Below are positions 19 through 24,000 of a DNA stretch of 24,000 nt, piece by piece. The first letter of the stretch is position 1. Each line of letters opens with the position of its first letter. The translations under genes and the position numbers were made by a program. The notes beneath the pieces were generated by a model, which made no database searches, had not been told where the DNA came from, and saw only the letters and a list, made by a program, of their open reading frames with translations. This stretch comes from Neoroseomonas terrae (GTDB taxonomy: Bacteria; Pseudomonadota; Alphaproteobacteria; Acetobacterales; Acetobacteraceae): NCBI RefSeq assembly GCF_018129025.1, contig NZ_JAAEDI010000014.1, forward strand, positions 94,521 through 118,520, written 5' to 3'.

Positions 19-22
<4 letters not shown>
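1..22 (-). CDS. First codons (partial, runs off window) of a further gene, presumably the second ABC ATP-binding subunit (DppF-like)
   Basis: ATG at 22..20 overlaps the TGA (21..19) of the upstream permease/ATPase gene as ATGA, the same coupling seen at other junctions in this array. It reads MRPPELV... The function is guessed only from usual Dpp/Opp operon order. Confidence 0.25.
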
Positions 23-1835
<1,813 letters not shown>

Positions 1836-1836
<1 letters not shown>

Positions 1837-2780: not shown

Positions 2781-2789
2781 CACGACGGA

Positions 2790-9979: not shown

Positions 9980-11557
9980 TCAGGCTTTCGTCACACCCCA
10001 GAATTGCGGGAAGGGCGCCTGCACGACGCCGCGCACATTGTCTCGCCAGGCCGTATGGCCCAGGAAGAATCCGGTCGGGATGGAGGTCACGAAGTCCATC
10101 GAGACGCGGTTGATGCGGTCGATCGCCTCGCGGGCCTGGGCATCGTCCACGGCGGCGTACCAGGATGCGATCGCCTCCTGCACCGAATCCGAGCTCGGCC
10201 AGCCGAACCAGGCGCGATCGCCACTGGCCGCGAGCCCGTTGTAGCCGGCGGGAACGAGGCAGGATGCGCCGGCGCTCCAGGTGTGGAAGATGTGCCACCC
10301 GCCCTGGGATGGCGGCGCCTTGCTGGCGCGGCGCTGGCCGACCGTGCCCCAGTCGAGCGACTGGAAATCCACGTTCATGCCGAGGCGGTTGGCCAGCAGG
10401 TCGCGCGTGACGTCGGATTGCGCCTTGTTGATGTGGACGTCCGAGGTCGCGAGCAGCACGATCGGCTCGCCGTCATAGCCGCTCTCGGCGAGCAGGCGCT
10501 TCGCCTCGTCGTAGCGACGCGGGCCTTTGAGCACGTCGCCGCCGACCTCGGTATAAGTGGGCGTGCCGGGCGTGAAGAAGCCGGGCATCGGGCGCCACAG
10601 GTCGGCGTCGTCGCCGACGATCGCGCGCATGTAGTCTTCCTGGCTCAGTGCGAGCTGGATGGCGCGCCGCGCACGCACATCGTTGAACGGCGGATGGAGG
10701 TGGTTCATCCGGAAGGTGCCGACATTGCCGAGCGGATCGGCGATATCGACCTTGATGCGCCGGTTGCGGCGAAGCAGCGGCACGAGGTCGACGATCGGGC
10801 TTTCCCACCAGTCGATCTCGCCGCTGCTCAGCGCGTTCGCGGCCGTCGACGGATCGGGCATGGTGATCCACTCGATGCGATCGAAGGCCATCGGCTTGCC
10901 GCCGGCGAGCCAGTCCGACGGCTCGTCGCGCGACCGGAAGTGCGGCGAGCGCACGAAGACCGCACGCGCGCCGGCCAGCCATTCGTCGCGTTTGAACATC
11001 ATCGGCCCGGAGCCGATGAACTCCGGCACGACGCGATGCGGGTCGAGCGAGGCGATGCGTTCCGGCATGACCACCGCCGAGGCCGGCTTGCCCAGCGCCC
11101 AGAGGAGCTGCGGCATCGGCTGCTTCAGGCGGATGCGGAAGCTGCGGTCGTCGATCCCCTCGATAGCGTCAAGGCGCGAGAGGATCATCGGTCCCATCGT
11201 ATCGCGCGCCAGCCAGCGCCGGAGGCTGGCGACGGCGTCGCGGGTCAGGACCGGCTCGCCGTCATGGAAGCGCAGCCCTTCGCGCAGGCGGAAGGTCCAG
11301 ACCTTCCCGTCGCTCGACAGGTCATAGGCCTCGACCATCTGCGGCCGGGGCACGAGGCGGGAGTCGACGCCGAACAGCGTGTCGTAGACGAGGTACGACG
11401 CGTTGCGCACGACGATCTGCGTGCCGGCGATCGGATCAATGTTCGGAAGGTCGGCCTGCGGCACGAAACGCAGCACGCGCTGTGCTTGCGCGGAGGCCAG
11501 TCGGGGCATCGCCACGGCGGCGGCAACGGCTGATCCAAGGTCTCGGCGACGGAACAT
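9980..11557 (-). CDS. ABC transporter substrate-binding protein, family 5, Tat-like signal peptide (second SBP, first gene of the array)
   Basis: 525-aa ORF with ATG at 11557. The N-terminus is MFRRRDLGSAVAAAVAMPRLASA/QA. Family-5 features include VPQADLPNIDP, WTFRLREGLRFHDGEPV and IDWWESP. AGGGGA lies about 8-14 nt upstream of the ATG. Confidence 0.9.
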   Translation of the reverse strand: MFRRRDLGSAVAAAVAMPRLASAQAQRVLRFVPQADLPNIDPIAGTQIVVRNASYLVYDTLFGVDSRLVPRPQMVEAYDLSSDGKVWTFRLREGLRFHDGEPVLTRDAVASLRRWLARDTMGPMILSRLDAIEGIDDRSFRIRLKQPMPQLLWALGKPASAVVMPERIASLDPHRVVPEFIGSGPMMFKRDEWLAGARAVFVRSPHFRSRDEPSDWLAGGKPMAFDRIEWITMPDPSTAANALSSGEIDWWESPIVDLVPLLRRNRRIKVDIADPLGNVGTFRMNHLHPPFNDVRARRAIQLALSQEDYMRAIVGDDADLWRPMPGFFTPGTPTYTEVGGDVLKGPRRYDEAKRLLAESGYDGEPIVLLATSDVHINKAQSDVTRDLLANRLGMNVDFQSLDWGTVGQRRASKAPPSQGGWHIFHTWSAGASCLVPAGYNGLAASGDRAWFGWPSSDSVQEAIASWYAAVDDAQAREAIDRINRVSMDFVTSIPTGFFLGHTAWRDNVRGVVQAPFPQFWGVTKA

Positions 11558-11673
11558 GCGCTGTAATCCCCTGCTGGAGTGCGACGTCCGTCCCGTGGTT
11601 GACTATAGAGATGCGGAAAATATCAGCAAGACGCTCTCATGCAGAAATAATAGGGTCGAAAAATAGGCAAAAC

Positions 11674-11688
11674 GACCATGAGATGGTC
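11674..11688. promoter_or_regulatory. Perfect palindrome GACCAT-N3-ATGGTC about 120 nt upstream of the minus-strand array; candidate operator
   Basis: Read directly from gaccatgagatggtc. It lies in the presumed promoter region of the SBP-led operon. No regulator gene is in the window, so this is a structural observation only. Confidence 0.2.
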
Positions 11689-12711
11689 ATGTCAACCGTG
11701 TGGTACCCACATCCAAGGGTTCCACGGCGCCAACGCTGGAATGTCTGGCCGTCGCATCCCGCCGTCGGTCTCGGGCAGACGCGAGATGCCTTCGCACTTG
11801 AAGCGGCGATGCGGTGCCGAACGCGTCCGGCGCGCGCGAATAGTGAACCGCGAGCGTAGAAGAGGCTGTCATCAAGCTGGGTTACGCTGCTGGCATCGAC
11901 GTCGCGCCAGCGGAGAGCGTAGATGCGCTCAACGGGCCAGAGTGGCGCATCGATTGGCGGGGCCATAGTGCGGGAGCGTTTTGCCGGCCTTGGTGCCGAC
12001 GCCACGCCGATAACGCCTGCGGGAATGGGCCGGCTTAAGTAGCCTGCCAATGGCTGAGCAATCCTTGTTAGGGACCCAGAAATTCCCTGTTCGGGTAGTA
12101 GGGTGTCCCGGCGGCAAGGCCCAAATTTCTTGGGTTTCGGGCGCGCAGCGACGATGGAATCCGGCGTTCTGCTCGAGTTTTCCCAGTATTTTCCCTGGTA
12201 GCCGGGAGTTCGGGCCCGAGGCGGGTTCGCCAATGACTAGCTCCGCCGCCAGTTCTCTTTGGCGTCCCGCTCTCCGCCTGCTGAGCTTTCACGCCGAGTG
12301 CAAGGTCTCTTGGAAGTTCCCGGGCGACCTGTTGACGGACCTACATCGTCACAACGGTTACAACCGCAAGAATGTGGCGACGGATACGGGCCGGAGGACG
12401 CTGGAGGTCCTGGCTATGCGCTGCTTCGGTCTTTTCCGCGCCGCGCGCACATCACGCTGACCAACCCGGCCCACCACATGCGCCGCCTGGTCTGGGTCGA
12501 AGGGAGAGGCGCGTCCGCGTGCAAGCCCAACCACCGGAAATACAGGCGGGGCGGTAATCGTCCCTGTCAGCGGTCGATAGACGGACGCCCGTCTCCTGCA
12601 GCGCCCCACTCGCCACTTTCACCGGCTTCCAATGGCGGGGATTGTTCGAGGTGTGCGTTCGCCGCGGTAGTGGATCAGACAAGACCTCACGGGATGATCC
12701 AGGTGTTCGTT

Positions 12712-12734
12712 GGCCTCCGTTGACTTAGGAGGCC
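12712..12734 (+). promoter_or_regulatory. Hairpin sequestering a Shine-Dalgarno sequence (anti-SD GGCCUCC / SD GGAGGCC, 9-nt loop)
   Basis: ggcctcc (12712-12718), gttgactta, ggaggcc (12728-12734): 7 perfect Watson-Crick pairs, 6 of them G:C. The 3' arm contains the GGAGG that sits 5 nt upstream of the ATG at 12738. No T-tract follows, so it is not a classical terminator. Confidence 0.4.
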
Positions 12735-12737
12735 GCA

Positions 12738-12863
12738 ATGCTAAGCACCACAATACCTACGCCGAATCGCATCATCCTGCTGGCCTGTCTGTGGCCGCGC
12801 ACCACACCGGAAGCCCGCCACAATGAATCACCTGACAATCAGAACGTTAAGCGTTTCTGGTAA
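12738..12863 (+). CDS. Small ORF, 41 aa (MLSTTIPTPNRIILLACLWPRTTPEARHNESPDNQNVKRFW), possible leader peptide or uORF of the MBOAT gene
   Basis: Below the ORF-track size cutoff and translated by hand. It has a canonical TAGGAGG-N5-ATG and a TAA stop at 12861-12863, 8 nt before the GTG start of the MBOAT gene. I recognise no homology, and the hydrophobic stretch IILLACLW is too short for a transmembrane helix. Confidence 0.3.
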   Translation: MLSTTIPTPNRIILLACLWPRTTPEARHNESPDNQNVKRFW

Positions 12864-12871
12864 GTAAAATC

Positions 12872-14293
12872 GTGGTTTTCTCGTCAGCGATATTTTTGTT
12901 TTTCTTTCTTCCTTTATTTTTTCTGTGTTATTTTACAGTAAAAATAGATAAAATCAGAAATTATATTATAATTGTTTTCTCCTTAATTTTCTATGGTTGG
13001 GGCGAACCGTGGTTCGTTCTGGTGCTTCTCTTATCGCTGGCGCTCAACTGGACGGCGGCGATCTATATAGATCGTGAAGAGCGACGGAATCGATTGATCG
13101 CCACGATCGTCGCCGTGGCACTGAATCTTCTCCTTCTGGCATCCTTTAAGTACGGGGATTTCATAGTTCAGAATATCAATGCAGTACTATTGCCCGTTCT
13201 CGGGGTTTCTATAAAGCAGCCAAATCTTCCCCTGCCATTGGGGATATCATTTTTCACGTTTCATTGCCTTTCTTATATCATTGATGTTTATCGGCGCCGC
13301 TTCCGCGCGAATAGGCGTCCTAGTGAAATCGCACTCTATATTGTTCTATTTCCGCAGCTCGTGGCGGGACCGATCGTGCGTTACAAAACAATCGCGCGGC
13401 AATTGCGCTCGCGCCGACATACACTTGGCCGAGCCTCGATCGGGGCGCGCATCTTCATTATCGGTCTAGCCCAAAAGATCCTTATCGCGGATCAGGTCGC
13501 AATCCTCGTAGAGACCGTCTTTGACCGCACCTCCGCGCCGTCGATGCTCGAGGCCTGGACAGGGTTGCTTGCCTATACGGTCCAGATTTATTTCGATTTC
13601 TGCGGCTACTCCAACATGGCGGTAGGCCTCGGATTCATCCTTGGCTTTAGTCTTCCGCGGAACTTCCGGCTTCCCTATACCGCGTTGTCCATCACCGATT
13701 TCTGGCGGCGCTGGCACATCTCCTTGTCGAGCTGGCTCAGGGACTACCTCTATATCCCGCTCGGCGGTAGCCGAGGCAGCTCTGCGCAACTCTACCGCAA
13801 TCTGATCCTCGTCTTCCTGCTTTGCGGGCTCTGGCACGGCGCCAACTGGACCTTCGTGCTCTGGGGCGCCTGGCATGGCGCCTTTTTGGTGATCGAACGG
13901 ATGGGCTTGAACCGCGTGCTGGGGAGGCTGCCGGTGGCGCTGCGCTGGGCCTACACAATCCTCGCCGTGATGGGTGGCTGGGTGCTGTTCCGCGCGCATG
14001 ACGTCGGCGGGGCTGCGGCGATGTATGCCGGGCTGCTGGGCTGGAACGGTATCGGCGCCATGCGCTTACAGGTCCATCTCGCGCTCGAGCCCGGCGTCAT
14101 GCTGGCGCTTGCAGCCGGATGGGCGTTCGCGACGATGCCGGCTTGGGGTCCTGCCCTGCGTCGATTGGCCGTCCCGGGCCTGGCTAGGCTTCGCGCCACA
14201 GTGGACACGGCCTGGACCTTTGGTCTGCTGATTCTCAGCCTGCTCTATGCTGCAGCCGGGACCTATAGCCCTTTTCTCTACTTCAGGTTCTGA
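12872..14293 (+). CDS. MBOAT-family membrane O-acyltransferase, AlgI-type (polysaccharide O-acetylation), 473 aa, GTG start
   Basis: The family-typical N-terminus MVFSSAIFLFFFLPL fixes the GTG at 12872 as the start. Motifs are FPQLVAGPIVRY, YFDFCGYSNMA, FWRRWHISLSSWLRDYLYIPLGG (catalytic His region) and CGLWHGANW. Confidence 0.9.
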   Translation: MVFSSAIFLFFFLPLFFLCYFTVKIDKIRNYIIIVFSLIFYGWGEPWFVLVLLLSLALNWTAAIYIDREERRNRLIATIVAVALNLLLLASFKYGDFIVQNINAVLLPVLGVSIKQPNLPLPLGISFFTFHCLSYIIDVYRRRFRANRRPSEIALYIVLFPQLVAGPIVRYKTIARQLRSRRHTLGRASIGARIFIIGLAQKILIADQVAILVETVFDRTSAPSMLEAWTGLLAYTVQIYFDFCGYSNMAVGLGFILGFSLPRNFRLPYTALSITDFWRRWHISLSSWLRDYLYIPLGGSRGSSAQLYRNLILVFLLCGLWHGANWTFVLWGAWHGAFLVIERMGLNRVLGRLPVALRWAYTILAVMGGWVLFRAHDVGGAAAMYAGLLGWNGIGAMRLQVHLALEPGVMLALAAGWAFATMPAWGPALRRLAVPGLARLRATVDTAWTFGLLILSLLYAAAGTYSPFLYFRF

Positions 14294-14298
14294 GGCCC

Positions 14299-15429
14299 AT
14301 GTTCTTCCGGTATCGCCGCGGATGGTTCCTCTGCCTGGTGGCCCTGCTCGCCGTGCCGCTGATTACCGGTGTGGTGTTCCCCAATACCATGCGCTCCCCC
14401 GATGAACTGCGCCCCCCTGCCGAAGCGCCCGCCATGCCGCGGGGCTGGCTCGAATGGATCACATTTCCAGCGCGGGTCGATCCCTGGCTGCGCGATAACT
14501 TCGGGCTTCGCCGCCACATGATCCATGCTCAGGCCTTGGTGGCGCACTGGCTGCTGGCCAGTGGCAATGACTCTGTGTTGATCGGCAAGCGCTGGCAGCT
14601 TTTCTATCGCGCAGAGGGAGCCGTTGAGCAGAGCGCCGGGCACCTGATCCGTGCGGATCAGGTGCGGCAGACGGCAGATCTCGTTCGCCAAGTCGATACG
14701 ATACTCGCCGCGCGCGGAATCGGGTTCATCTTCGGCGTCCCCCCGAACGGCAGCACGATCTATGACGACTTGCTGCCGCGCTGGGCTCGGCGCGGCGATC
14801 GGACAACTGAATACGACCTGCTGATGACGGAACTGCGCGAGCGCGGCGTCAGGACCCTCGACATGCGCCCTAGCCTTCGTGCCGCGCGGCAGGCCGGGCG
14901 CGTCTATTTTCGCTATGACACGCACTGGAACCCGGCGGGTTCGCTGGCCGGATACAACGCCGTAGTCGCCGCCATGGGACGCGAATCATGGCGGGTTGAT
15001 CGGCCTACGATCTTCGGGCCTACGACACGGCGCAGCGGCAGCGACCTCAGCCGTCTGCTCGGCCTGGGCGCCGATCTGTCCGAGCCCGTCCGCTACCTCA
15101 CGATCCCGATGCCTCAGGGCGAGACCTTGCCGGGTAACCCACCCTTTCCACCCCCCTTCGTCACCACATCCGATCGGGTCGAAGGGCCGACGATCATGAT
15201 CATCGGCGATTCCTTCTCCAACGTCGAAATTCTGATGCTGACCGCGCAGAATGCCCGGCGCGTCGTTTGGCTGCATCACGAGGGCTGTCACTTCGACTGG
15301 AAGTGGATCGACCAGTTCCAGCCCGACGAGATCTGGTGGCTGCCCGTCGAGCGGGCCATGCTCTGCTGGACCGACCGGCGCCCCAGGAACATGCCCGAGG
15401 CGCCCGCCGCGCCGCCTTCGCCCCGATAG
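14299..15429 (+). CDS. AlgJ/AlgX-like SGNH-type polysaccharide O-acetyltransferase partner, N-terminal membrane anchor, 376 aa
   Basis: The ATG is 5 nt after the MBOAT stop and preceded by GAGG. It has an N-terminal hydrophobic anchor (WFLCLVALLAVPLITGVVF). AlgJ/AlgX family motifs are IGKRWQLFY, VPPNGSTIYDDLLP and YFRYDTHWN (the D-x-H-W catalytic motif). Confidence 0.8.
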   Translation: MFFRYRRGWFLCLVALLAVPLITGVVFPNTMRSPDELRPPAEAPAMPRGWLEWITFPARVDPWLRDNFGLRRHMIHAQALVAHWLLASGNDSVLIGKRWQLFYRAEGAVEQSAGHLIRADQVRQTADLVRQVDTILAARGIGFIFGVPPNGSTIYDDLLPRWARRGDRTTEYDLLMTELRERGVRTLDMRPSLRAARQAGRVYFRYDTHWNPAGSLAGYNAVVAAMGRESWRVDRPTIFGPTTRRSGSDLSRLLGLGADLSEPVRYLTIPMPQGETLPGNPPFPPPFVTTSDRVEGPTIMIIGDSFSNVEILMLTAQNARRVVWLHHEGCHFDWKWIDQFQPDEIWWLPVERAMLCWTDRRPRNMPEAPAAPPSPR

Positions 15430-15432
15430 GAT

Positions 15433-15453
15433 CCGCCCCGGCGACCGGGGCGG
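15433..15453. terminator. Perfect 9-bp GC hairpin (CCGCCCCGG-CGA-CCGGGGCGG) in the 36-bp gap between convergent genes; candidate bidirectional terminator
   Basis: Read directly. It lies between the TAG at 15427-15429 (plus gene) and the stop at 15468..15466 (minus gene). There is no clear U-tract on either side, so termination efficiency is uncertain. Confidence 0.45.
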
Positions 15454-15465
15454 CCGGCACAAGGC

Positions 15466-17421
15466 CTATAGCGGCTTCCGCGCGATGAAGACGCTGTTCG
15501 CGCCGCCGAGATACATGAACTGCGCCGACCAGTAGAACAGGCCCTCCGCGTCGCTGAAGCCGACGGCGGACAGGTCTTCGATGATCTTCCACCCAAAATA
15601 CTGGAAGCACAGGCTGCCGCCCTCCGGATCAACCGGATTGCCGTGGAACTCGGGTTCCATCAGATGCTCGATGGAGCCGTCAGGGCGCAGCACCGCACGC
15701 ACCAGGTGGCTGTGAAGATCCTCGCGGAATGGTGCCGTGAAAAGCAGCGAACCTCCCGGCTTCAGGCAGCGCCAGAACTCCGCGAGAGCCTGCCGCGCAT
15801 CGGGAACATGTTCGAGCACATCGAAGCTCAGGATCAGGTCCAGGCCCGCATCGGGAAAGCTCAGCCGATGAACGTCCTCGTGACGCAGGCCGTCCACGAT
15901 CTCGCCCGGGGTGTGGCCCGGGCCCAGGTACTCGCTGCCAACGACGAAGGGAAAGCGCTGGCGCAGCCAGTCATGCAGCGGCGTGACCTGCTCGGTGATG
16001 TAGATGCGGTCGTGCTGCCGCGGCCGGAGTTCCTGCCAGAGGAGATGCAAAGAAGCCCGCAGCCGGTTGCCGAGGCCGCAGCCCGTGCAGGCCAGGTGCT
16101 CCCGCCAGTTCGGCAGGGTGCGCCCGTCCGGCAGTCGTCCGGTCGCGTAGTTGAAGTTGACCTGAAGCGGCCGCGTGCCGCCGCAGACGACGCACTGGCC
16201 TTCGACCGTGAACCCCGCCTCGCCGGACTCGTTTGGCACCAGGCTCGCCTCGAAGGCACGGCGTCGCGCCATCTTCGGCGCGAGGTCGGCCGCGAACGCC
16301 GACATCTCGCCCTGGGAACGTGCGCGCAGCACCGGCAGGTTGGGTGCCCGGGCCTCGATGGTGAGAGGCCGCGAGGACGCCGCGGCGCCTTTCACCGCGG
16401 TGAAGTCCTGCAGCGAACTCGGGCTGTGCTCGTTCTCCTGCCCGGCACCATTCCAGCGGAAGGCATAGGGGATGCGCCGGTAGTCCTCTCGCCCAAAGCG
16501 CCTTACTTCGGACCGATATTGCTCAAACAGCGTTCCGACGTCGCGCAGTGCCTCCGTGCGGAACTGCTGGCTGTGACGACTGAAGCTCGAATCCTCATCG
16601 ACCGCCGAACCGCTGAAATGGAAGAAGCGAAGCGGCGCGCCGTTGACCTTCCAGCCGCCGGCGCTTGGTTCCGCCGGCGCCCGAACCGTTCGCTGCGCAA
16701 GATTCCAATAAGCCACATTGTAGCCGGGATGGCGCAGGATGGCGGTGTGCTCGATGAAGGCCGGCAGCAGGTCCGCCCATTTCTGATCGACGAAGAATCC
16801 CGCTGCGAGATCGATGATGCAGTGCGTCTCGAGCCGGCGCGCCCACCATGCCGCAACACGGCGCACCGTAGCCGTATCGCGCAGCGCACAGAAACCGAGG
16901 TTGTAGATGCCGAACCGCAGCATCTTCGATTCATCCATCTCGGCATACTCCGCGGGCTCACAGAGATGCGGCGTCAGGACGCAATCCGCCCCGCCGTCTG
17001 ACAGCAGGGTGTGCAGTTCCTCCAGCGGCGACATGACCCATATATCCGGATCGAAATAGGCGACGGCCGCGCCGGGGTGCCGATCGAACAGCGTCAGAAA
17101 GGCGAAAGGTTTGATGGCGGTGTTGAGCTCCGTGATGTTGTATCGCTCGGTCATCTGAGCGAGCTGCGGGATTCCCAGATCACTCATGCGGAGGATGTCG
17201 AAGGGCAGGCCGTCGAAATCGACGCCAGTCGGCTCGTCGCACAGGGCGACGTAGAAGTGGACCCCCGGATGATGTCGTCTCAGGCTGTCATGCAACACCT
17301 GCGCCTGGGCCAGGAAGTTTCTCGAACAGATCGTGAAGGCGATGAAGGCTGGTGCAACTGCCGGCTCCATGTCGCTGCCATCTAAGCGGCCTGCTGGCTC
17401 TCTCATCATGAAGACATCCAT
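15466..17421 (-). CDS. Bifunctional putative glycosyltransferase (GT-A-like, DxD) / Cys4 zinc-ribbon / class-I SAM-dependent methyltransferase, up to 651 aa
   Basis: The N-terminal ~330 aa has FTICSRNFLAQAQVLHDSLRRHHPG, the DxD-like YFDPDIWV and FVDQKWADLLP..GYNVAYWNL. The Cys pairs CVVCGG and CTGCG lie at about nt 16075-16200. The C-terminus has the methyltransferase motifs LILSFDVLEHVPD and LKPGGSLLFTAPF. The start is uncertain among ATG 17421, 17409/17406 and 17370. It begins 6 nt after the upstream gene's stop. Confidence 0.8.
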   Translation of the reverse strand: MDVFMMREPAGRLDGSDMEPAVAPAFIAFTICSRNFLAQAQVLHDSLRRHHPGVHFYVALCDEPTGVDFDGLPFDILRMSDLGIPQLAQMTERYNITELNTAIKPFAFLTLFDRHPGAAVAYFDPDIWVMSPLEELHTLLSDGGADCVLTPHLCEPAEYAEMDESKMLRFGIYNLGFCALRDTATVRRVAAWWARRLETHCIIDLAAGFFVDQKWADLLPAFIEHTAILRHPGYNVAYWNLAQRTVRAPAEPSAGGWKVNGAPLRFFHFSGSAVDEDSSFSRHSQQFRTEALRDVGTLFEQYRSEVRRFGREDYRRIPYAFRWNGAGQENEHSPSSLQDFTAVKGAAASSRPLTIEARAPNLPVLRARSQGEMSAFAADLAPKMARRRAFEASLVPNESGEAGFTVEGQCVVCGGTRPLQVNFNYATGRLPDGRTLPNWREHLACTGCGLGNRLRASLHLLWQELRPRQHDRIYITEQVTPLHDWLRQRFPFVVGSEYLGPGHTPGEIVDGLRHEDVHRLSFPDAGLDLILSFDVLEHVPDARQALAEFWRCLKPGGSLLFTAPFREDLHSHLVRAVLRPDGSIEHLMEPEFHGNPVDPEGGSLCFQYFGWKIIEDLSAVGFSDAEGLFYWSAQFMYLGGANSVFIARKPL

Positions 17422-17427
17422 CTTCGA

Positions 17428-20208
17428 TCATTTGGTGGCCGGGAGGCCCAGCGCGTGAAGCATCTCGGCCAGCCGACGCGCGCCTGCGTCGACCGAGAAT
17501 TTTGCCTGCGCCTGCGCATGGCCGCCGGCGGAGAGTCTGGCCCACAGCGTCGGATCTTCGTGCAGGTCGCAGATCCGCGCGGCGAAGGATTCCGGCGTGT
17601 CCGCGATGGCAACGTCGCGGCCGTCCTGTAGGTGCATTCCCTCCGCCGCCATCGGCGTGGCCACGCAGGGGGTGCCGGCGGCGAGGCTTGATGCCACCTT
17701 GCCCTTGGCACCCGCGCCGTAACGCAGAGGTGCGACCGTCAGGCGCAGGCCGTCGAACCAGGGCTCGAGATCGGGCAGGGGGCCGAGATAGCGGACGCCG
17801 GGTGGCATCTGCGACCGTAGATCCTCCGGCAGGTCCGCCCCGACAATCGACATCGTCGCGTGCGGTAGACGCTGCGCCACGTGTGGCCAGATTTCGTCAA
17901 GCAGATACCGCACTGCATCGACGTTCGGCGTATGTTCGAAGCCACCGACGAAACCCAAGCCGCTGCGGCCTGCGAAGCCGGGGATGGCCGCCGCCGGGCG
18001 GACTGGGCGCGCGAGCGGCATTTCGAACACCGCCGAACCGGGCACGTCGCGCAACAGCACGGCGCGTTCGGCGGAGGAGACGACAATCGTCGCGTCGGCT
18101 TGGCGCGTCAGATAGTATTCTCGCTCCCGGGTCGTCTCCGAAAGGCGCATTTCCTCCAGGTTGCCGGTCAGCCGCGCTTCTCGGTCCTCTCGCATATGGT
18201 GCAGATCGACCGTGTTGAAGACGACCTTTGCGCGCGGCGCATGCCGGCGGACGGCTTCGAGATAGCGGCCACCGTGATAGACGCGCGAAAGGATGCACAG
18301 CGTCAGCGTCTCACCGTCGCTGCGAAGGAAGGCCTGGATCGAGGGTGTGAGTCGCGGCGTCAGGCAGATGATGCCTTCTGCTTCCAGGCTGTCGCGATAG
18401 GAAGACGACTCACGGAAAGAATGATCCCCCACGAACACGACCTCATAGCCGAATTCGCGCAGCGTGCGGGCCTGGAGCACGGCGTCGACCGATCCCGAAT
18501 CGCGATCCGGCCTGGGCCAGCGACTGTCGATGATAAGGGCACGCGGTTTGGCAGGGGGCGGCAGACAGGCCCGCCCGCCATCCTTGACGACAACCGGTTC
18601 CACGAAGGTAGGCCGCCAGCCTGTAGGTGCGACCGGCAGCAGTGGCGGCTTGTGACCTGACGAGGGGGAGAAGGCCTTGGTTTTGCCGGCGTTCGGCCGG
18701 ACCGCGGCACCCTGGCCGGTCGCGTGGTTGGCCGTTGCATCGCGGTACAGACGCAGGCGGTGCGGGAGTTGCAGGGAGATGGTCCACCAGAGCAGCTTGG
18801 CGCTGCGACCCACGGCGCGGCGCAGGCTGGTGGGCAGGCGCTGCCCGATGCGGCGGATCGGGTTGGTAGCGCGCCAGAGTGTGCTGTTCTCGATAGCCCG
18901 CAGGCGGTCCTGACTGGACTGAAGTTCCGACCGCGCACCACGTTCGGCGGCGGCGCGGGCCTCGGCCCGGGCGACGGCCGCGGTGATTTCCGCGCGCAGC
19001 GTCGCGGCCTCGGCCTGGGCCTGCGCGATGGCGGCCGCGTTTTCCGCATGCAGCGCCGCCGCCTTGTCATCGGCCTGCGCGATGGCGGCCGCGTTTTCCG
19101 CGTGCAGCGCCGCCGTCTTGCCATCGGCCTGCGCGATGGCGGCCGCGCTTTCCGAGCGCAGCGCCGCGGCCTCGGCCCTGGCCGCGCCATGGGCCTCCAT
19201 CTCGCGGCGCAATCGCTCCTCCAACCCGCTCACCCGCTGGTCGAGGCGCAGCGAGAGGTAGCGGCGGCAATCCGCCGCGCTCAGCGCGACCAGATTGAAG
19301 TAATCGGGACCGCCGGGTTCGGTGCCGTCATCGCCGGCGTGCAATTCGCGCCCGATCCCGCTCTCACCGAGATGGAAGAGGCGATAGCCCCACTCTCGCA
19401 GTTGGGTCAGCAGCGCCTCGGCGGTGGTGCCACTGACCCGGCTCAGCCAATGGGGGAAGACCTCGACCAGCAGGACCGGCCGATCGCGGGCAATCAGCGC
19501 CTGCGCGCCCCGCAGCACCAGCGGTTCGGCCCCTTCCACGTCGATCTTGATCAGCCGCACCGGACCCTCGATGCCAAGCGCATCCAGCGGTCGAACCGGC
19601 ACCCGACCCAGCGAAACCGCGCCCTCCGGCATGGCGCCGGGGACGAGGAAGCTGTGGCCGGGATTGCGTTCATCCGGCGCCCAGGCCAACTCGATCGCCC
19701 CTTCCTCGGCGCCAAGCGCGATCGCCTCGATGCGGCAGCGCTCGTCGAAGCCATTGTCGGCAACGGACTGACGCAAGCGGCGGGAAAGGTCCGCCCGTGG
19801 CTCGAAGGCATGAACCCGGCCCTGGGGCCCCACCGCCTGCGCCGCAAGGATCGAGAACCACCCGATATTCGCCCCGACATCGATGAAGCCGTCGCCGGGT
19901 TCGAGCACGGTCAGGATGAAATCCGTCTCGGCCGGTTCCCACGCCCCGCGCAGGCACCCCAGCGAGACACCGTGATCGGCGAGGTCAAGCCAGAGCTTCA
20001 GGCCGTCGCGGATCTCTGCGCAGACCCACTTGCTGCGCGCGAACACGTCCACGGCCATGCGTGCGCGAAACTCCTCGCTCTCCAGCAACCGCTGCCCCAG
20101 CGCAGTCGCCGACGCCGCTTCCCGCGCCGCCGCGACCGTCACCTCACTCTCCGGCTCCCGGCCAAGGATCGCTCCATATATCGCCACAACGTCTTCACGA
20201 GTGATCAT
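17428..20208 (-). CDS. Multidomain FkbM-family methyltransferase / Ala-rich coiled coil / GT-B (group-1, GT4-like) glycosyltransferase, 926 aa
   Basis: Track ORF 17428..20529 trimmed to ATG 20208 (MITREDVV...), preceded by AGGA. FkbM motifs are FIDVGANIGWFSILAA, VHAFEP and LIKIDVEGAEPLVL. The coiled coil carries 18-aa repeats. The GT-B part has LIIDSRWPRPDRDSGS and GAGAKGKVASSLAAGTPCVATPMAAEG. Confidence 0.85.
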   Translation of the reverse strand: MITREDVVAIYGAILGREPESEVTVAAAREAASATALGQRLLESEEFRARMAVDVFARSKWVCAEIRDGLKLWLDLADHGVSLGCLRGAWEPAETDFILTVLEPGDGFIDVGANIGWFSILAAQAVGPQGRVHAFEPRADLSRRLRQSVADNGFDERCRIEAIALGAEEGAIELAWAPDERNPGHSFLVPGAMPEGAVSLGRVPVRPLDALGIEGPVRLIKIDVEGAEPLVLRGAQALIARDRPVLLVEVFPHWLSRVSGTTAEALLTQLREWGYRLFHLGESGIGRELHAGDDGTEPGGPDYFNLVALSAADCRRYLSLRLDQRVSGLEERLRREMEAHGAARAEAAALRSESAAAIAQADGKTAALHAENAAAIAQADDKAAALHAENAAAIAQAQAEAATLRAEITAAVARAEARAAAERGARSELQSSQDRLRAIENSTLWRATNPIRRIGQRLPTSLRRAVGRSAKLLWWTISLQLPHRLRLYRDATANHATGQGAAVRPNAGKTKAFSPSSGHKPPLLPVAPTGWRPTFVEPVVVKDGGRACLPPPAKPRALIIDSRWPRPDRDSGSVDAVLQARTLREFGYEVVFVGDHSFRESSSYRDSLEAEGIICLTPRLTPSIQAFLRSDGETLTLCILSRVYHGGRYLEAVRRHAPRAKVVFNTVDLHHMREDREARLTGNLEEMRLSETTREREYYLTRQADATIVVSSAERAVLLRDVPGSAVFEMPLARPVRPAAAIPGFAGRSGLGFVGGFEHTPNVDAVRYLLDEIWPHVAQRLPHATMSIVGADLPEDLRSQMPPGVRYLGPLPDLEPWFDGLRLTVAPLRYGAGAKGKVASSLAAGTPCVATPMAAEGMHLQDGRDVAIADTPESFAARICDLHEDPTLWARLSAGGHAQAQAKFSVDAGARRLAEMLHALGLPATK
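18643..20208. repeat. Direct repeat copy A (1566 bp) = N-terminal cassette of gene 17428..20208
   Basis: Aligns with 22313-23878 at a constant +3670 offset. Line-by-line comparison found 8 mismatches, all at or below 18974, and no indels. Confidence 0.95.
19021..19176. repeat. In-frame 54-bp tandem repeat (2 near-identical units + 1 degenerate, with a further degenerate unit upstream) in the coiled-coil region of copy A
   Basis: Units at 19021-19074 and 19075-19128 differ at 3 of 54 positions, and 19129-19176 is degenerate. They encode AAAIAQADGKTAALHAEN / AAAIAQADDKAAALHAEN / AAAIAQAQAEAATLRAEI. Confidence 0.85.
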
Positions 20209-23200
20209 GCTGGGATCCTGAACTGTCCGCGTCGCTGGCGGGAGTTCCTGGTGTTGAAGCTCGAGCCATAGGGCCAGCGCCCGTGCCGGGGTGCAGCGGA
20301 GGTTGCAACGGCAGCGCGTTCGCGCTCTCCAGCGTCCTGGCCAGTTCGATGCAGCGCGCCGCCTCCGCCCGCTCCAGCCCGAAGACACCGGCCGCGTATT
20401 CGAGGAAGGCTCGCGCAGCCTGACGGCGTTCCGCATCGGGGCTGGAAACGCGCGCGGCCAGAGCCTGGACCTGGGCGATCTCCTCCAGATGACGGGTATG
20501 CCCCGAGGTGATCGTAAGGCCCCGCGCATGCCGCCGGTGATGGTTCAGCGCCGCCGCCTTGAAGGCAATGTCCCCGCGTTCCAGCATGCGGATATAGAAC
20601 AGCCAGTCCGCCGCGTTGCGCAGGGAGACCATGGCCTCGATGGTTTCGGACAGGACAGGTAGCGCGGCATCGCGCCGCATCACCACGGCGCTCACATTGA
20701 GAATAGTGTTCTTCACGCTGAGGCAGTGTCGGATCTCCTCGCTGCCCGGGCGCCGGTAGTCGGAGGTCCAGAGCGCAGGATCCACATCGCTCGTATAGGC
20801 GACATAGTCCGGCGCGATGACCGCGCCGTGCTCGTCGATCTGCTTCGACTGCGTATAGGCCATCACGACGGCTGGATTGGCGAATTCCGGAATGAGGGAA
20901 TTGAGAAAGGCCGGTTCCGAAAGATCGTCGGCCTCGGCAATCCAGACCAGCGGATACCGCGCCAATTCGACGCCCCGAGCCCATTGCCGAGACACGCTTC
21001 CAGAGTTCTGCGCATTCGGCACGATCCGCATCGGTACGGGCGACGACGCGCGCAAGGTCTCGAGAACAGCCAGGCTGTCGTCCGATGAGGCATCGTCAAG
21101 CACGATGAGTTCCGATACCTGATGGCTTTGCGCCCAGATGGAACGCACACGCTCCGGCAGGTATCTCGCATAGTTGTAGTTCGGAACGACGGCCGTCACG
21201 CGGTTGGGCGGCAGAGCCAGGGTGGCAAGGTCCCGCACATAGGCAGGAAAGCTCAGCCTGTCCGCGACGATCCGCTCGCCCGCCTGGCCTGCGTGCGCCC
21301 TGAGCACCGGATCGCGGATCAGCGCGCCGATCGCCTGGCCCATCGCTTCGGCATCTTCGAACGCCGGGGGGAGCAAGCCCGTCTCGCGGGCAAGCTCGGG
21401 CATCCCGCCGCTCCGATCGAAGCAGATGACAGGAAGCCCATGCGCGGCGGCTTCAAGCGCCGAGCTCGGAAAGGGATCCTCGCGCGAGGAAAGCAGGAAG
21501 ATGTCGGCGGCGGAGAGGAACTCCTGCGGCGTCTCCGTCTTCCCCGGCAACAGGATGACATCCTGGAGGTGTTGCGCCTCAATCGCGGCGCGCAGTCCGG
21601 CCTCCACTCCCGGTTCAATGGCACCGACCCAGGCGAAGCGCGCCGCATGCCCCTCTGCGCGCAGGGCCGACGCGATGGCTGGCCATAGGTCCAGGCCCTT
21701 GCGGCGATCCCCGAAGCCGAGGCCAAGGATCAGGATCGTGTCCGGCCCCACACCCAAAGCACTGCGAATGCGCACGCGCGCCGCCTCGCGCTGATCCGGA
21801 GGCAGCGACGGGCGGTATAGCCCCTGCGGCCGAACCAGCCATCGATGCCTCGTATCTCCGAATGTTCCGATGAAGGCAGCGCGCACCGCATCATTCGGAA
21901 AGACCACGACATCGGCTTCAGCTGCGACGGTTCTCGCAGCGGCCTCCAGCCCGTACTCGCGGATGATGCCAGGCATCTCATGGACTAGGCAGATGCTTCG
22001 CAGCCCTGCCGCGGCAAGGGCAGGGATGATCTGGCCGGAGACCGTCGTATTGCAGATGACGGTCGAGACCCCGCTACCGGCCAGGTCCCGGGCCGTGGCC
22101 TCCCAGGCCTGTCGGTCGGCGAAGGGAACGAGTCGGGTGTGCGCTACCGCCGCCATCGCGTCCCGGAGCTCGCCGCCATCGCCGAGAATGATCTCGACCT
22201 CACATTCGCCCTGTCGGACCACTTCCTCGGCGATGTGCAGCACCAGCAATGGAGCGCCGTGAAAGCGGGCGTCATGAGAGATGATGGCGATGCGCTGCTC
22301 CGCTCGAGTTGTTGGCGGCTTGTGCCCTGACGAGGGGGAGAAGGCGTCGGTTTTGCCGGCGTTCGGCTGGACCGCGGCACCCTGGCCGGTCGCGTGGTGG
22401 GCCGTTGCATCGCGGTACAGGCGCAGGCGGTGCGGGAGTTGCAGGGAGATGGTCCACCAGAGCAGCTTGGCGCTGCGACCCACGGCGCGGCGCAGGCTGG
22501 TGGGCAGGCGCTGCCCGATGCGGCGGATCGGGTTGGTAGCGCGCCAGAGTGTGCTGTTCTCGATAGCCCGCAGGCGGTCCTGACTGGACTGAAGTTCCGA
22601 CCGCGCGCCACGTTCGGCGGCGGCGCGGGCCTCGGCCCGGGCGCCGGCCGCGGTGATTTCCGCGCGCAGCGTCGCGGCCTCGGCCTGGGCCTGCGCGATG
22701 GCGGCCGCGTTTTCCGCATGCAGCGCCGCCGCCTTGTCATCGGCCTGCGCGATGGCGGCCGCGTTTTCCGCGTGCAGCGCCGCCGTCTTGCCATCGGCCT
22801 GCGCGATGGCGGCCGCGCTTTCCGAGCGCAGCGCCGCGGCCTCGGCCCTGGCCGCGCCATGGGCCTCCATCTCGCGGCGCAATCGCTCCTCCAACCCGCT
22901 CACCCGCTGGTCGAGGCGCAGCGAGAGGTAGCGGCGGCAATCCGCCGCGCTCAGCGCGACCAGATTGAAGTAATCGGGACCGCCGGGTTCGGTGCCGTCA
23001 TCGCCGGCGTGCAATTCGCGCCCGATCCCGCTCTCACCGAGATGGAAGAGGCGATAGCCCCACTCTCGCAGTTGGGTCAGCAGCGCCTCGGCGGTGGTGC
23101 CACTGACCCGGCTCAGCCAATGGGGGAAGACCTCGACCAGCAGGACCGGCCGATCGCGGGCAATCAGCGCCTGCGCGCCCCGCAGCACCAGCGGTTCGGC

Positions 23201-23878
23201 CCCTTCCACGTCGATCTTGATCAGCCGCACCGGACCCTCGATGCCAAGCGCATCCAGCGGTCGAACCGGCACCCGACCCAGCGAAACCGCGCCCTCCGGC
23301 ATGGCGCCGGGGACGAGGAAGCTGTGGCCGGGATTGCGTTCATCCGGCGCCCAGGCCAACTCGATCGCCCCTTCCTCGGCGCCAAGCGCGATCGCCTCGA
23401 TGCGGCAGCGCTCGTCGAAGCCATTGTCGGCAACGGACTGACGCAAGCGGCGGGAAAGGTCCGCCCGTGGCTCGAAGGCATGAACCCGGCCCTGGGGCCC
23501 CACCGCCTGCGCCGCAAGGATCGAGAACCACCCGATATTCGCCCCGACATCGATGAAGCCGTCGCCGGGTTCGAGCACGGTCAGGATGAAATCCGTCTCG
23601 GCCGGTTCCCACGCCCCGCGCAGGCACCCCAGCGAGACACCGTGATCGGCGAGGTCAAGCCAGAGCTTCAGGCCGTCGCGGATCTCTGCGCAGACCCACT
23701 TGCTGCGCGCGAACACGTCCACGGCCATGCGTGCGCGAAACTCCTCGCTCTCCAGCAACCGCTGCCCCAGCGCAGTCGCCGACGCCGCTTCCCGCGCCGC
23801 CGCGACCGTCACCTCACTCTCCGGCTCCCGGCCAAGGATCGCTCCATATATCGCCACAACGTCTTCACGAGTGATCAT
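20195..23878 (-). CDS. Multidomain FkbM-family methyltransferase / coiled coil / GT-B (GT4-like) / GT-A (GT2-like) glycosyltransferase, 1227 aa
   Basis: Track ORF 20195..23968 trimmed to ATG 23878, chosen by identity with the paralog's start. Upstream ATGs at 23968 and 23923 are possible but fall outside the duplicated cassette. The GT-B part (about nt 21200-22295) has ICLVHEMPG and FLLSSREDPFPSSALEAAAHGLPVICFD. The GT-A part (about nt 20500-21200) has VTAVVPNYNYARYL, ELIVLDDASSDDS and WIAEADD. Confidence 0.85.
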   Translation of the reverse strand: MITREDVVAIYGAILGREPESEVTVAAAREAASATALGQRLLESEEFRARMAVDVFARSKWVCAEIRDGLKLWLDLADHGVSLGCLRGAWEPAETDFILTVLEPGDGFIDVGANIGWFSILAAQAVGPQGRVHAFEPRADLSRRLRQSVADNGFDERCRIEAIALGAEEGAIELAWAPDERNPGHSFLVPGAMPEGAVSLGRVPVRPLDALGIEGPVRLIKIDVEGAEPLVLRGAQALIARDRPVLLVEVFPHWLSRVSGTTAEALLTQLREWGYRLFHLGESGIGRELHAGDDGTEPGGPDYFNLVALSAADCRRYLSLRLDQRVSGLEERLRREMEAHGAARAEAAALRSESAAAIAQADGKTAALHAENAAAIAQADDKAAALHAENAAAIAQAQAEAATLRAEITAAGARAEARAAAERGARSELQSSQDRLRAIENSTLWRATNPIRRIGQRLPTSLRRAVGRSAKLLWWTISLQLPHRLRLYRDATAHHATGQGAAVQPNAGKTDAFSPSSGHKPPTTRAEQRIAIISHDARFHGAPLLVLHIAEEVVRQGECEVEIILGDGGELRDAMAAVAHTRLVPFADRQAWEATARDLAGSGVSTVICNTTVSGQIIPALAAAGLRSICLVHEMPGIIREYGLEAAARTVAAEADVVVFPNDAVRAAFIGTFGDTRHRWLVRPQGLYRPSLPPDQREAARVRIRSALGVGPDTILILGLGFGDRRKGLDLWPAIASALRAEGHAARFAWVGAIEPGVEAGLRAAIEAQHLQDVILLPGKTETPQEFLSAADIFLLSSREDPFPSSALEAAAHGLPVICFDRSGGMPELARETGLLPPAFEDAEAMGQAIGALIRDPVLRAHAGQAGERIVADRLSFPAYVRDLATLALPPNRVTAVVPNYNYARYLPERVRSIWAQSHQVSELIVLDDASSDDSLAVLETLRASSPVPMRIVPNAQNSGSVSRQWARGVELARYPLVWIAEADDLSEPAFLNSLIPEFANPAVVMAYTQSKQIDEHGAVIAPDYVAYTSDVDPALWTSDYRRPGSEEIRHCLSVKNTILNVSAVVMRRDAALPVLSETIEAMVSLRNAADWLFYIRMLERGDIAFKAAALNHHRRHARGLTITSGHTRHLEEIAQVQALAARVSSPDAERRQAARAFLEYAAGVFGLERAEAARCIELARTLESANALPLQPPLHPGTGAGPMARASTPGTPASDADSSGSQHDHS
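22313..23878. repeat. Direct repeat copy B (1566 bp) = N-terminal cassette of gene 20195..23878
   Basis: Partner of 18643-20208. Identity stops exactly at the A of the ATG (23878 vs 20208) and, at the other end, just after the codons for ..SSGHKPP. Confidence 0.95.
22691..22846. repeat. Same 54-bp tandem repeat in copy B
   Basis: Identical to 19021-19176 at the +3670 offset. Confidence 0.85.
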
Positions 23879-24000
23879 ATCAACTTGCTTTCGCAATGAT
23901 GATCGATCAAGTCCTGCTTGCATTCTACCGCGTTCATGTCGGCTGCTTTCCCGACCATCCGGTTGCACGACGCTGCGCGCTGAGCTCTCGTTGGCGTGGG

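What the first reader, a model, noticed from the sequence alone, without database searches (positions are those of the whole stretch)
18643..23878. Near-perfect 1566-bp direct repeat puts one identical N-terminal cassette on two different giant glycosyltransferase genes
18643-20208 and 22313-23878 align base for base at a constant 3670-nt offset. I found 8 mismatches and no indels, and 18975-20208 vs 22645-23878 (1234 nt) appear identical. In both genes the repeat covers the start codon through residue 522 (..SSGHKPP). That is the FkbM methyltransferase, the coiled coil and a basic Trp/Arg-rich segment (NSTLWRATNPIRRIGQRLPTSLRRAVGRSAKLLWW). It ends in an interdomain linker. Beyond it the proteins are unrelated: GT-B only in one, GT-B plus GT-A in the other. 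This points to a very recent cassette duplication or ongoing gene conversion. A crossover between the copies would excise exactly 3670 bp. That would leave one hybrid gene lacking the upstream GT-B/GT-A core, which could act as a genetic switch of glycan structure.
Basis: partly seen in the sequence, partly recalled or inferred. Interest (0 to 1): 0.8.

Follow-up and report, generated by a model that had tools for sequence, protein, structure and literature searches.

The report
Shared cassette kept identical by gene conversion
Two neighbouring sugar-polymer genes in a Roseococcus-like bacterium carry the same 522-residue front end (a methyltransferase plus a long helical spacer); the same pair exists in a related species, so repeated copying between the genes, not a recent duplication, has probably kept the two copies identical.

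Summary
Window 18643-20208 and 22313-23878 match at a 3670-nt offset, with 8 mismatches, no indels and 1234 identical bases. The match stops at the ATG of two overlapping minus-strand genes. Gene A (926 aa) is FkbM methyltransferase, helical spacer, basic amphipathic segment, GT4. Gene B (1227 aa) is the same cassette plus an unrelated GT4 and GT2.

Roseococcus pinisoli has the same gene pair. Its own two cassettes are 99.5% identical, yet only about 79-83% identical to the window's, the same divergence as the unique gene parts. The duplication is therefore old and homogenised by gene conversion (concerted evolution), not recent. A second assembly of a near-identical strain also shows two copies. 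Its two substitutions at gene positions 86 and 95 are present in both copies.

Gene A's architecture is widespread as a single gene, and relatives of gene B's core lack the cassette, so the cassette went from A to B.

By analogy with WbdD, WbbB and Klebsiella O7 ORF6, the cassette is most likely a chain-terminating methyltransferase on a ruler. Hetero-oligomerisation through the identical spacers is plausible but untested. The deletion-switch idea has no support. This is a new variant of known kinds, of moderate interest.

The parts
18643..20208 (-). Cassette copy in gene A (codons 1-522): N-terminal helical mini-domain, FkbM methyltransferase, helical spacer, basic amphipathic segment, start of linker
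22313..23878 (-). Cassette copy in gene B (codons 1-522), 99.5% identical to the gene A copy
17428..20208 (-). Gene A, 926 aa: cassette plus GT4 (GT-B fold) glycosyltransferase. This architecture is widespread in Alphaproteobacteria
20195..23878 (-). Gene B, 1227 aa: cassette plus an unrelated GT4 plus GT2. This architecture was seen only here, in L001 and in R. pinisoli
20195..20208 (-). 14-nt overlap of gene B's last codons and stop with gene A's first codons (ATGATCACTCGTGA). Gene B's stop lies inside the repeat, which suggests translational coupling
   Evidence: Read from the sequence and the translations
19378..19881 (-). FkbM methyltransferase core (residues 110-277) of gene A. The identical copy in gene B lies at 23048-23551
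   Evidence: The SAM-site motif D110/G112-G116 is invariant in the family alignment
18958..19192 (-). 54-nt (18-aa) tandem repeat, about 4 units, inside the helical spacer of gene A
22628..22862 (-). The same 54-nt tandem repeat in gene B. TRF reports 22657-22846; the range given here is the gene A array shifted by 3670
18769..18888 (-). Basic Trp-rich amphipathic segment (residues 441-480, STLWRATNPIRR...LLWW), the putative membrane-proximal anchor. The gene B copy lies at 22439-22558
   Evidence: highest hydrophobic moment, 12 K/R against 2 D/E, no transmembrane helix. The motif is conserved in relatives
18643..18974 (-). 3' edge of the cassette, holding all 8 paralog-specific differences. 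These are conserved in L001, so this edge now diverges independently
15466..17421 (-). Next gene in the same direction (651 aa, 6 nt after gene A): an unassigned N-terminal domain plus a class-I methyltransferase. Conserved after gene A in R. pinisoli
12872..15429 (+). Convergently oriented (facing the gene B-gene A-651-aa gene run) MBOAT (12872-14293) and AlgX-like SGNH (14299-15429) genes, a probable glycan O-acetylation pair. Conserved next to the cluster in R. pinisoli

Best explanation
Two adjacent, overlapping minus-strand genes of a glycan-assembly operon share one 522-codon N-terminal module. The module originally belonged to gene A (FkbM methyltransferase, helical spacer, amphipathic segment, GT4). 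An ancestor of this organism and of Roseococcus pinisoli copied it onto the front of a GT4-GT2 gene, creating gene B. Since then, non-reciprocal homologous recombination (gene conversion) between the two direct copies has repeatedly overwritten one with the other. The copies therefore evolve in concert, and only the 3' edge has begun to drift apart. Functionally (inferred), the module is the terminator-plus-ruler part of a polymerase-terminator system. The methyltransferase would cap the growing chain. The repeat-built helical spacer would hold it at a set distance from the membrane-proximal glycosyltransferases. The basic amphipathic segment would hold the base at the membrane. Because both proteins carry the same spacer, they can have the same reach and may co-assemble. 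This last step is speculative.
For: Shown. (1) The repeat is exact and ends at the start codon. (2) The R. pinisoli locus L002 has orthologous gene B' and gene A' with cassettes at a 3772-nt offset and 9 mismatches in 1650 nt. (3) Over the first 990 nt, A and B are 100% identical in the window, 99.9% in L001 and 99.6% in R. pinisoli, but 82.4-82.9% identical between species. The unique parts of the orthologues are 78-79% identical. (4) In the near-identical strain L001, substitutions at gene positions 86 and 95 occur in both copies, while the 8 edge differences split by paralog in both strains. (5) Direction of transfer: FkbM-spacer-GT4 proteins of about 870-1210 aa occur as single genes in other Alphaproteobacteria and in metagenomes. 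GT4 relatives carry the same spacer and the STxWR...WW motif. Relatives of gene B's core start directly at the GT-B domain or carry a WbsX domain instead. No other locus examined has an internal long repeat spanning these genes; the only repeats found (L006) lie after the gene and next to IS genes. (6) The AlphaFold model gives a confident methyltransferase (1-310), long helices (311-372, 399-440), helices 443-494, a disordered linker and a confident GT-B domain with GT4 structural neighbours. (7) Spacer length varies from about 100 to about 500 residues in the family and is built of tandem repeats: 54 nt here, 78 nt in R. pinisoli, about 9 units in P0370. Established knowledge: in WbdD, WbbB and K. 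pneumoniae O7 ORF6, a terminator sits at the distal end of a coiled-coil ruler and glycosyltransferases at its base (PMC11231755).
Against: No Wzm/Wzt-type exporter with a cap-binding module lies in the window or within 10 kb in L001 or L002. The spacer helices have low pLDDT, and a simple hydrophobicity spectrum shows no significant heptad signal. 'Coiled coil' therefore rests on analogy and on the family-wide variable-length helical repeats. The strain-level 'concerted' substitutions come from an assembly with a long-read error profile, with 9 homopolymer insertions. Identical context could give identical systematic errors, and polishing over an identical repeat could equalise the copies. 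Only two species carry the arrangement, so the age of the duplication rests on one comparison. No enzyme activity, glycan structure or protein interaction was tested.
Confidence: 0.78

Rival explanations
1. Very recent duplication: the cassette was copied onto gene B only recently, and the copies are alike simply because there has been no time to diverge.
For: 99.5% identity with a 1234-nt perfect block. The shared region ends at slightly different linker positions in the two species, which could hint at separate events.
Against: R. pinisoli has the same two genes in the same order, with its own near-identical cassette pair that is 17-21% diverged from the window's. The unique parts of the orthologues have the same divergence. 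Two independent, recent, in-frame fusions of the same module to the same gene would be needed. This architecture appears nowhere else among the best matches of an exhaustive search of 1.84 billion representative proteins.
Confidence: 0.04
2. Assembly artefact: a single cassette was duplicated, or two diverged copies were made identical, by assembly or polishing.
For: Perfect repeats longer than a read length are prone to collapse or cross-polishing. The 1234-nt perfect block could be partly equalised by multi-mapped reads.
Against: Three independent assemblies show two copies with intact reading frames through both junctions. L001 has a long-read error profile, and such reads normally span 1.6 kb. 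The same 8 paralog-specific differences recur in the window and in L001.
Confidence: 0.02
3. Recombinational switch: crossover between the direct repeats deletes 3670 bp, removing gene B's GT4-GT2 core, and the cell uses this to change its glycan.
For: The geometry is correct. The copies are direct and in register, so a crossover gives an intact gene identical or nearly identical to gene A behind gene B's upstream region. RecA-dependent deletion between 1.5-kb direct repeats is expected at low frequency (general knowledge).
Against: The deletion cannot be reversed without a donor copy, so it is a loss and not a switch. Both copies are retained in all three genomes and across a species split, which implies that deletions are selected against. 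No single-copy or hybrid allele appeared in the genome, metagenome, plasmid or protein searches, although very few relatives exist and the word-based protein searches missed even the L001 and R. pinisoli orthologues.
Confidence: 0.08
4. Neutral homogenisation: conversion is real but has no functional meaning. Two close direct repeats simply recombine often, and identity of the two modules is not selected.
For: Conversion between nearby repeats needs no selection. Equal spacer length in A and B follows automatically from conversion. The 3' edge is already drifting, with 8 fixed differences including 4 amino-acid changes.
Against: In both species the homogenised block covers the whole functional module, from the start codon to the linker. 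Without selection, deletion between the repeats should eventually remove one copy, yet both persist. The amphipathic segment has no amino-acid difference between the copies. None of this is decisive.
Confidence: 0.35

Closest known systems
Polymerase-terminator glycan assembly with a coiled-coil molecular ruler (E. coli O9a/K. pneumoniae O3 WbdD-WbdA; K. pneumoniae O12 WbbB; K. pneumoniae O7 ORF6), as summarised in PMC11231755
   Same: An N-terminal modifying enzyme (here an FkbM methyltransferase) is separated by a long helical spacer from membrane-proximal glycosyltransferase modules in one polypeptide, as in WbbB and O7 ORF6. A basic amphipathic segment follows the spacer, as in WbdD. Spacer length varies widely in the family. 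Further GTs and a second methyltransferase lie in the same operon.
   Different: The terminator is FkbM-type, and no paper in the searchable library links FkbM, coiled coil and O-antigen. Two proteins, not one, carry the terminator and ruler, with identical sequence. No Wzm/Wzt exporter with a cap-binding module is nearby. Coiled-coil character, capping and ruler function are not shown here.
Helicobacter pylori FutA/FutB fucosyltransferases (PMC2583950)
   Same: Two paralogous glycosyltransferase genes share a tandem-repeat 'ruler' region. Recombination between the paralogs moves sequence and repeat number from one to the other, sometimes changing both together. Homo- or hetero-dimerisation through the repeat region has been proposed.
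   Different: FutA and FutB are full-length paralogs at distant loci with the same catalytic domain, and exchange there generates diversity within a population. Here only an N-terminal module is shared by two adjacent genes with unrelated catalytic parts, and the visible outcome is homogeneity.
Concerted evolution of bacterial duplicate genes by RecA-dependent gene conversion, such as tufA/tufB in Salmonella and rRNA operons (own knowledge, not checked in the library)
   Same: Paralogs are more alike within a genome than orthologues are between species, and the mechanism is non-reciprocal homologous recombination.
   Different: Those cases involve whole genes of identical function. Here the conversion tract is one module of two multidomain genes. 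It is bounded by the start codon on one side and an interdomain linker on the other.
Shared-core, variable-tip gene arrays (Rhs, CdiA and their orphan toxin modules; own knowledge)
   Same: A constant N-terminal sequence is joined to different C-terminal functional parts in neighbouring genes. The shared sequence is a substrate for recombination.
   Different: Those arrays use recombination to swap toxin tips, and the orphans are usually not expressed. Here both genes are complete, co-oriented and overlapping, so both are probably expressed together.

Membership tests
Concerted evolution by gene conversion | Paralogous copies within a genome are more similar than orthologous copies between genomes | tested here: met
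   First 990 nt: 100%, 99.9% and 99.6% within genomes against 82.4-82.9% between species. Whole cassette: 99.5% against 79%.
Concerted evolution by gene conversion | Flanking orthologous sequence shows ordinary divergence, so the duplication predates the split | tested here: met
   The unique parts of gene A and gene B orthologues are 77.8% and 79.3% identical in DNA and about 78% in protein. Gene order is conserved.
Concerted evolution by gene conversion | New substitutions appear in both copies of one lineage | tested here: inconclusive
   L001 differs from the window at gene positions 86 and 95 in both copies. L001 has a long-read error profile, so systematic error or cross-polishing cannot be excluded.
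Concerted evolution by gene conversion | Divergence accumulates at the tract edges | tested here: met
   All 8 differences in the window lie in the last 332 nt. In R. pinisoli the differences cluster at both ends.
Polymerase-terminator system with coiled-coil ruler (WbdD/WbbB type) | A chain-terminating enzyme domain at the membrane-distal end of the spacer | tested here: inconclusive
   An FkbM methyltransferase domain is present with an invariant SAM-site motif and a confident model. A capping activity cannot be tested with these tools.
Polymerase-terminator system with coiled-coil ruler (WbdD/WbbB type) | An extended coiled coil between the terminator and the membrane-proximal part | tested here: inconclusive
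   Helices 311-372 and 399-440 are predicted but with low pLDDT. They are built of an 18-aa tandem repeat, and spacer length in the family ranges from about 100 to about 500 aa. No significant heptad periodicity was found.
Polymerase-terminator system with coiled-coil ruler (WbdD/WbbB type) | Peripheral membrane anchoring by an amphipathic helix, with no transmembrane segment | tested here: met
   Residues 441-470 have the highest hydrophobic moment, with 12 K/R against 2 D/E and 3 Trp. Neither protein has a transmembrane-like stretch. This is a prediction only.
Polymerase-terminator system with coiled-coil ruler (WbdD/WbbB type) | Polymerising glycosyltransferase modules in the same protein or recruited to it | tested here: met
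   GT4 in gene A; GT4 plus GT2 in gene B. GT-B fold with GT4 structural neighbours.
Polymerase-terminator system with coiled-coil ruler (WbdD/WbbB type) | An ABC exporter (Wzm/Wzt) whose carbohydrate-binding module recognises the cap | tested here: not met
   None in the 24-kb window or within 10 kb in L001 or L002; the only ABC genes are Opp-type importers. Distant single-gene relatives do sit beside ABC exporters (L003, L008). The exporter may be encoded elsewhere in the genome.
Recombinational on/off or phase-variation switch | Both states coexist in populations or among close relatives | not testable with these tools
   No read data. All three available assemblies are two-copy.
Recombinational on/off or phase-variation switch | Reversibility of the rearrangement | tested here: not met
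   The repeats are direct. A crossover deletes the intervening 3670 bp and cannot be undone within the cell. This follows from the geometry.

The most novel reading that the evidence does not exclude
The identity of the two modules is selected, not incidental. Gene A and gene B products co-assemble through their identical helical spacers into one mixed ruler complex, which places three glycosyltransferase modules at the membrane and the capping methyltransferases at the tip. Gene conversion is the means by which any change in ruler length, made by gain or loss of the 54-nt tandem units, is copied to the partner gene. Chain length of the glycan can then be retuned in one step without breaking the complex.
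Probability: 0.25. Interest if true: 0.7.

Novelty: new variant of a known kind. Interest (0 to 1): 0.5.

Why it matters
Current work on ABC-transporter-type glycan assembly stresses that terminator, ruler and polymerase modules are distributed among proteins in many ways (PMC11231755). All described cases have one ruler protein per system. This locus has two ruler proteins with the same terminator and spacer but different polymerase modules, and the sameness has been maintained across a species split. That makes testable the question of whether ruler proteins form mixed oligomers and whether equal ruler length matters. It is also a clean bacterial example of concerted evolution confined to one module of two multidomain genes. 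In practical terms, annotators and assemblers should expect such 1.5-kb perfect repeats inside glycan loci and should not collapse them.

Tried and rejected
- **Exact-sequence look-ups:** look-ups of gene A and gene B found nothing on record.
- **Genome and metagenome scans:** these gave only one relative each. L002 was decisive. L009 is a 3.6-kb contig at 56% identity and was of no use.
- **Plasmid search:** tblastn against plasmids found only distant FkbM genes at 31-34% identity.
- **Word-based protein searches:** these missed the closest orthologues (L001 gene A, R. pinisoli gene A), so absence from those lists is not evidence of absence.
- **Rfam:** no RNA family in the window.
- **Promoter and terminator scan:** no promoter-like site and one terminator-like site, below the number expected by chance.
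- **Hydrophobicity Fourier analysis:** no significant heptad peak, so 'coiled coil' is kept as an inference.
- **Foldseek on the whole model:** only GT4 neighbours were returned, nothing informative for the methyltransferase or spacer. A PDB sequence search gave only weak generic SAM-methyltransferase and FkbM hits.
- **Error-motif check:** I looked for a common methylation-type motif behind the L001 substitutions and found none, but all its indels lie in homopolymers.
- **Trans-specific paralog differences:** I looked for these at the cassette's 3' edge to date the duplication independently. The linker is too variable to tell.
Full report
**1.
A base-by-base comparison at a 3670-nt offset shows that window 18643-20208 and 22313-23878 differ at 8 positions with no indel, and that 18975-20208 is identical to 22645-23878. 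Identity falls to background on both sides. At the upper end it stops at the CAT that is the ATG of a minus-strand gene.

The two genes are:
- gene A, 17428-20208 (926 aa);
- gene B, 20195-23878 (1227 aa).

They overlap by 14 nt, so gene B's stop codon lies inside the first codons of gene A's cassette. Both proteins share residues 1-522 apart from four substitutions.

Pfam places an FkbM methyltransferase at residues 110-277 of both. It places a GT4-type domain at the C-terminus of gene A, and a GT4-type domain followed by a GT2 domain in gene B. The parts after residue 522 have no detectable sequence similarity. Inside the cassette lies a 54-nt tandem repeat of about four units.

**2. The repeat is not an assembly artefact.**
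- A JGI contig (L001) is 99.84% identical to window 10203-24000 and has the same two copies.
- Its nine indels relative to the window are all single extra bases in homopolymer runs. This is the error profile of long reads, which normally span a 1.6-kb repeat.
- One of these insertions splits gene B in L001 into 380-aa and 859-aa ORFs. I read this as a sequencing error.
- The same eight paralog-specific differences are present in L001.

**3. The duplication is old and the copies evolve in concert.**
The only relative in the species-representative genome collection is Roseococcus pinisoli XZZS9 (L002; Roseomonadaceae). It has the same layout:
- gene B' (1229 aa) followed by gene A' (968 aa);
- then a 650-aa methyltransferase gene;
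- then an AlgX-like and an MBOAT gene.

Its two cassettes lie 3772 nt apart and differ at 9 positions in 1650 nt. The identities are:

| Comparison | DNA identity |
|---|---|
| Cassette A vs B, window (first 990 nt) | 100% |
| Cassette A vs B, L001 (first 990 nt) | 99.9% |
| Cassette A vs B, R. pinisoli (first 990 nt) | 99.6% |
| Cassettes between species (first 990 nt) | 82.4-82.9% |
| Cassettes between species (whole cassette) | 79% |
| Unique part of gene A orthologues | 77.8% |
| Unique part of gene B orthologues | 79.3% |

Copies that are identical within each genome, but as diverged between species as the rest of the genes, are the signature of concerted evolution by gene conversion.

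Even the tandem repeat differs between species (78-nt units in R. pinisoli against 54-nt units here) while being the same in both genes of each genome.

At strain level, L001 differs from the window at gene positions 86 and 95 (R29Q, A32V) in both copies, whereas the eight edge differences sort by paralog in both strains. This fits a very recent conversion covering the 5' part of the cassette. I treat it as supportive only, because identical sequence context could give identical systematic errors in an error-prone assembly.

In the window all the differences lie in the last 332 nt. In R. pinisoli they cluster at both ends. Tract edges are expected to convert least often.

**4. The cassette moved from gene A to gene B.**
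- Proteins with gene A's architecture (FkbM, spacer, GT4; about 870-1210 aa) occur in Meridianimarinicoccus, in Agrobacterium pusense and in many metagenomes. In every locus examined they are a single gene, next to separate GT2, GT4 and epimerase genes.
- Relatives of gene A's GT4 domain carry the same helical stretch and the motif ST(x)WR..P.RR....WW even when they lack the methyltransferase.
- The closest relatives of gene B's GT4-GT2 core (P0122, 672 aa; P0123) begin directly at the GT-B domain. More distant relatives carry a WbsX domain instead.
- Among the best matches of an exhaustive search of 1.84 billion representative proteins, the only protein combining FkbM with GT4 and GT2 is R. 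pinisoli gene B.
- The six other loci examined contain no internal long repeat spanning these genes; only L006 has short (176-259 nt) repeats, after the gene and next to IS genes.

**5. What the cassette most likely does (inferred).**
An AlphaFold model of gene A has five regions:
- a confident methyltransferase domain (1-310);
- long helices at 311-372 and 399-440, with the low confidence usual for a monomer model of an oligomerising helix;
- three shorter helices (443-494);
- a disordered linker (495-555);
- a confident GT-B domain, whose structural neighbours are GT4 enzymes.

Residues 441-470 have the highest hydrophobic moment of the region and are strongly basic and Trp-rich. Neither protein has a transmembrane segment.

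In the family the spacer ranges from about 100 to about 500 residues and is built from tandem repeats.

This is the layout described for polymerase-terminator systems: a terminating enzyme at the far end of a coiled-coil ruler, glycosyltransferases at its membrane-proximal base, and an amphipathic helix at the membrane. Examples are WbdD, WbbB and K. pneumoniae O7 ORF6 (PMC11231755). I therefore read the cassette as a chain-capping methyltransferase on a ruler.

Three weaknesses remain:
- no Wzm/Wzt exporter is nearby;
- no heptad signal was detected;
- nothing biochemical is known.

**6. Why two identical rulers?**
Described systems have one ruler protein, which recruits or contains the polymerase modules (PMC11231755). 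Here the GT4-GT2 polymerase-like core has its own copy of the ruler. Identical spacers would allow mixed oligomers of A and B, so that three GT modules sit at one base. Conversion would keep the two lengths equal and would spread repeat-number changes to both genes.

The closest precedent is H. pylori FutA/FutB. There a tandem-repeat ruler is shared by two paralogous fucosyltransferases, is exchanged by recombination between them, and has been proposed to mediate homo- or hetero-dimers (PMC2583950).

The alternative is that conversion is a neutral consequence of two close direct repeats. It cannot be excluded, because equal length follows automatically from conversion.

**7. The deletion-switch idea.**
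A crossover between the copies would delete 3670 bp and leave a gene nearly identical to gene A behind gene B's upstream region, so the geometry is right. However:
- the event is irreversible;
- both copies persist in all three assemblies and across a species split;
- no single-copy or hybrid allele was found, although few relatives exist.

Deletions surely arise at low frequency, but they look like losses removed by selection, not a switch.

**8. Verdict.**
The finding is a new variant of two known things, ruler-type glycan assembly proteins and bacterial concerted evolution. Its unusual features are two co-expressed ruler proteins sharing one homogenised module. Interest is moderate.

Noticed in passing
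window 11558-12871 (and on into 12872-13500): A stretch of about 1.3 kb has no convincing ORF, and GC drops from about 66% to 51-56%. The low GC continues into the 5' half of the MBOAT gene. This may be a horizontally acquired O-acetylation module or a regulatory spacer.
   Followed up: no
L001 (JGI 3300055349, Ga0558512_069), positions matching window 10660-22763: All nine indels relative to the window are single extra bases in homopolymer runs. They fragment the MBOAT, SBP and gene B ORFs in that assembly, so the frameshift splitting gene B in the spacer repeat is probably a sequencing error and not phase variation.
   Followed up: partly
window 20195-20208: Gene B's last four codons and stop (CAT GAT CAC TCG TGA) are read from the first 14 nt of gene A's cassette in another frame. 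In R. pinisoli the two genes are instead 82 nt apart.
   Followed up: partly
P0370 (1137 aa) and P0374 (1213 aa), relatives of gene A: The spacer between FkbM and GT4 is about 500 aa there, against about 110 aa here. In P0370 it consists of about nine tandem 'QAEAEIxxLRSxL' units followed by the conserved SWR...P.RR...WW motif. In P0374 part of the spacer is a different repeat ('WY...DV...NP..HY...G..EGR').
   Followed up: partly
P0246 (Roseomonas elaeocarpi, 567 aa): This protein has the same about 45-residue N-terminal helical mini-domain as the cassette (MITxxEL..AFRLVLGRDPE...). It is joined directly to a short helical stretch, the WW motif and the GT4 domain, with no methyltransferase. 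The mini-domain may therefore have a role of its own.
   Followed up: no
window 15466-17421 (-): In this 651-aa protein Pfam recognises only the C-terminal class-I methyltransferase (about 512-613). The N-terminal 330 or so residues are unassigned and contain a DxD-like 'FDPDIWV' motif, so this may be an unrecognised GT-A-type transferase. The gene is conserved after gene A in R. pinisoli.
   Followed up: no
window 19-2298, 2790-4307, 9980-11557; L005 17253-22616: Opp-type peptide-importer genes, including a fused permease-ATPase of 759 aa and two family-5 solute-binding proteins, flank the glycan genes here and also in the Meridianimarinicoccus roseus locus. This is probably coincidental synteny.
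   Followed up: no
L007 (Agrobacterium pusense-related contig) 2251-4101: In one relative, the single-gene version of the cluster (GT2, GT4, epimerase, FkbM-spacer-GT4) lies about 2 kb from a 616-aa flagellin gene. In some lineages the product could therefore be a flagellin glycan and not an O-antigen.
   Followed up: no
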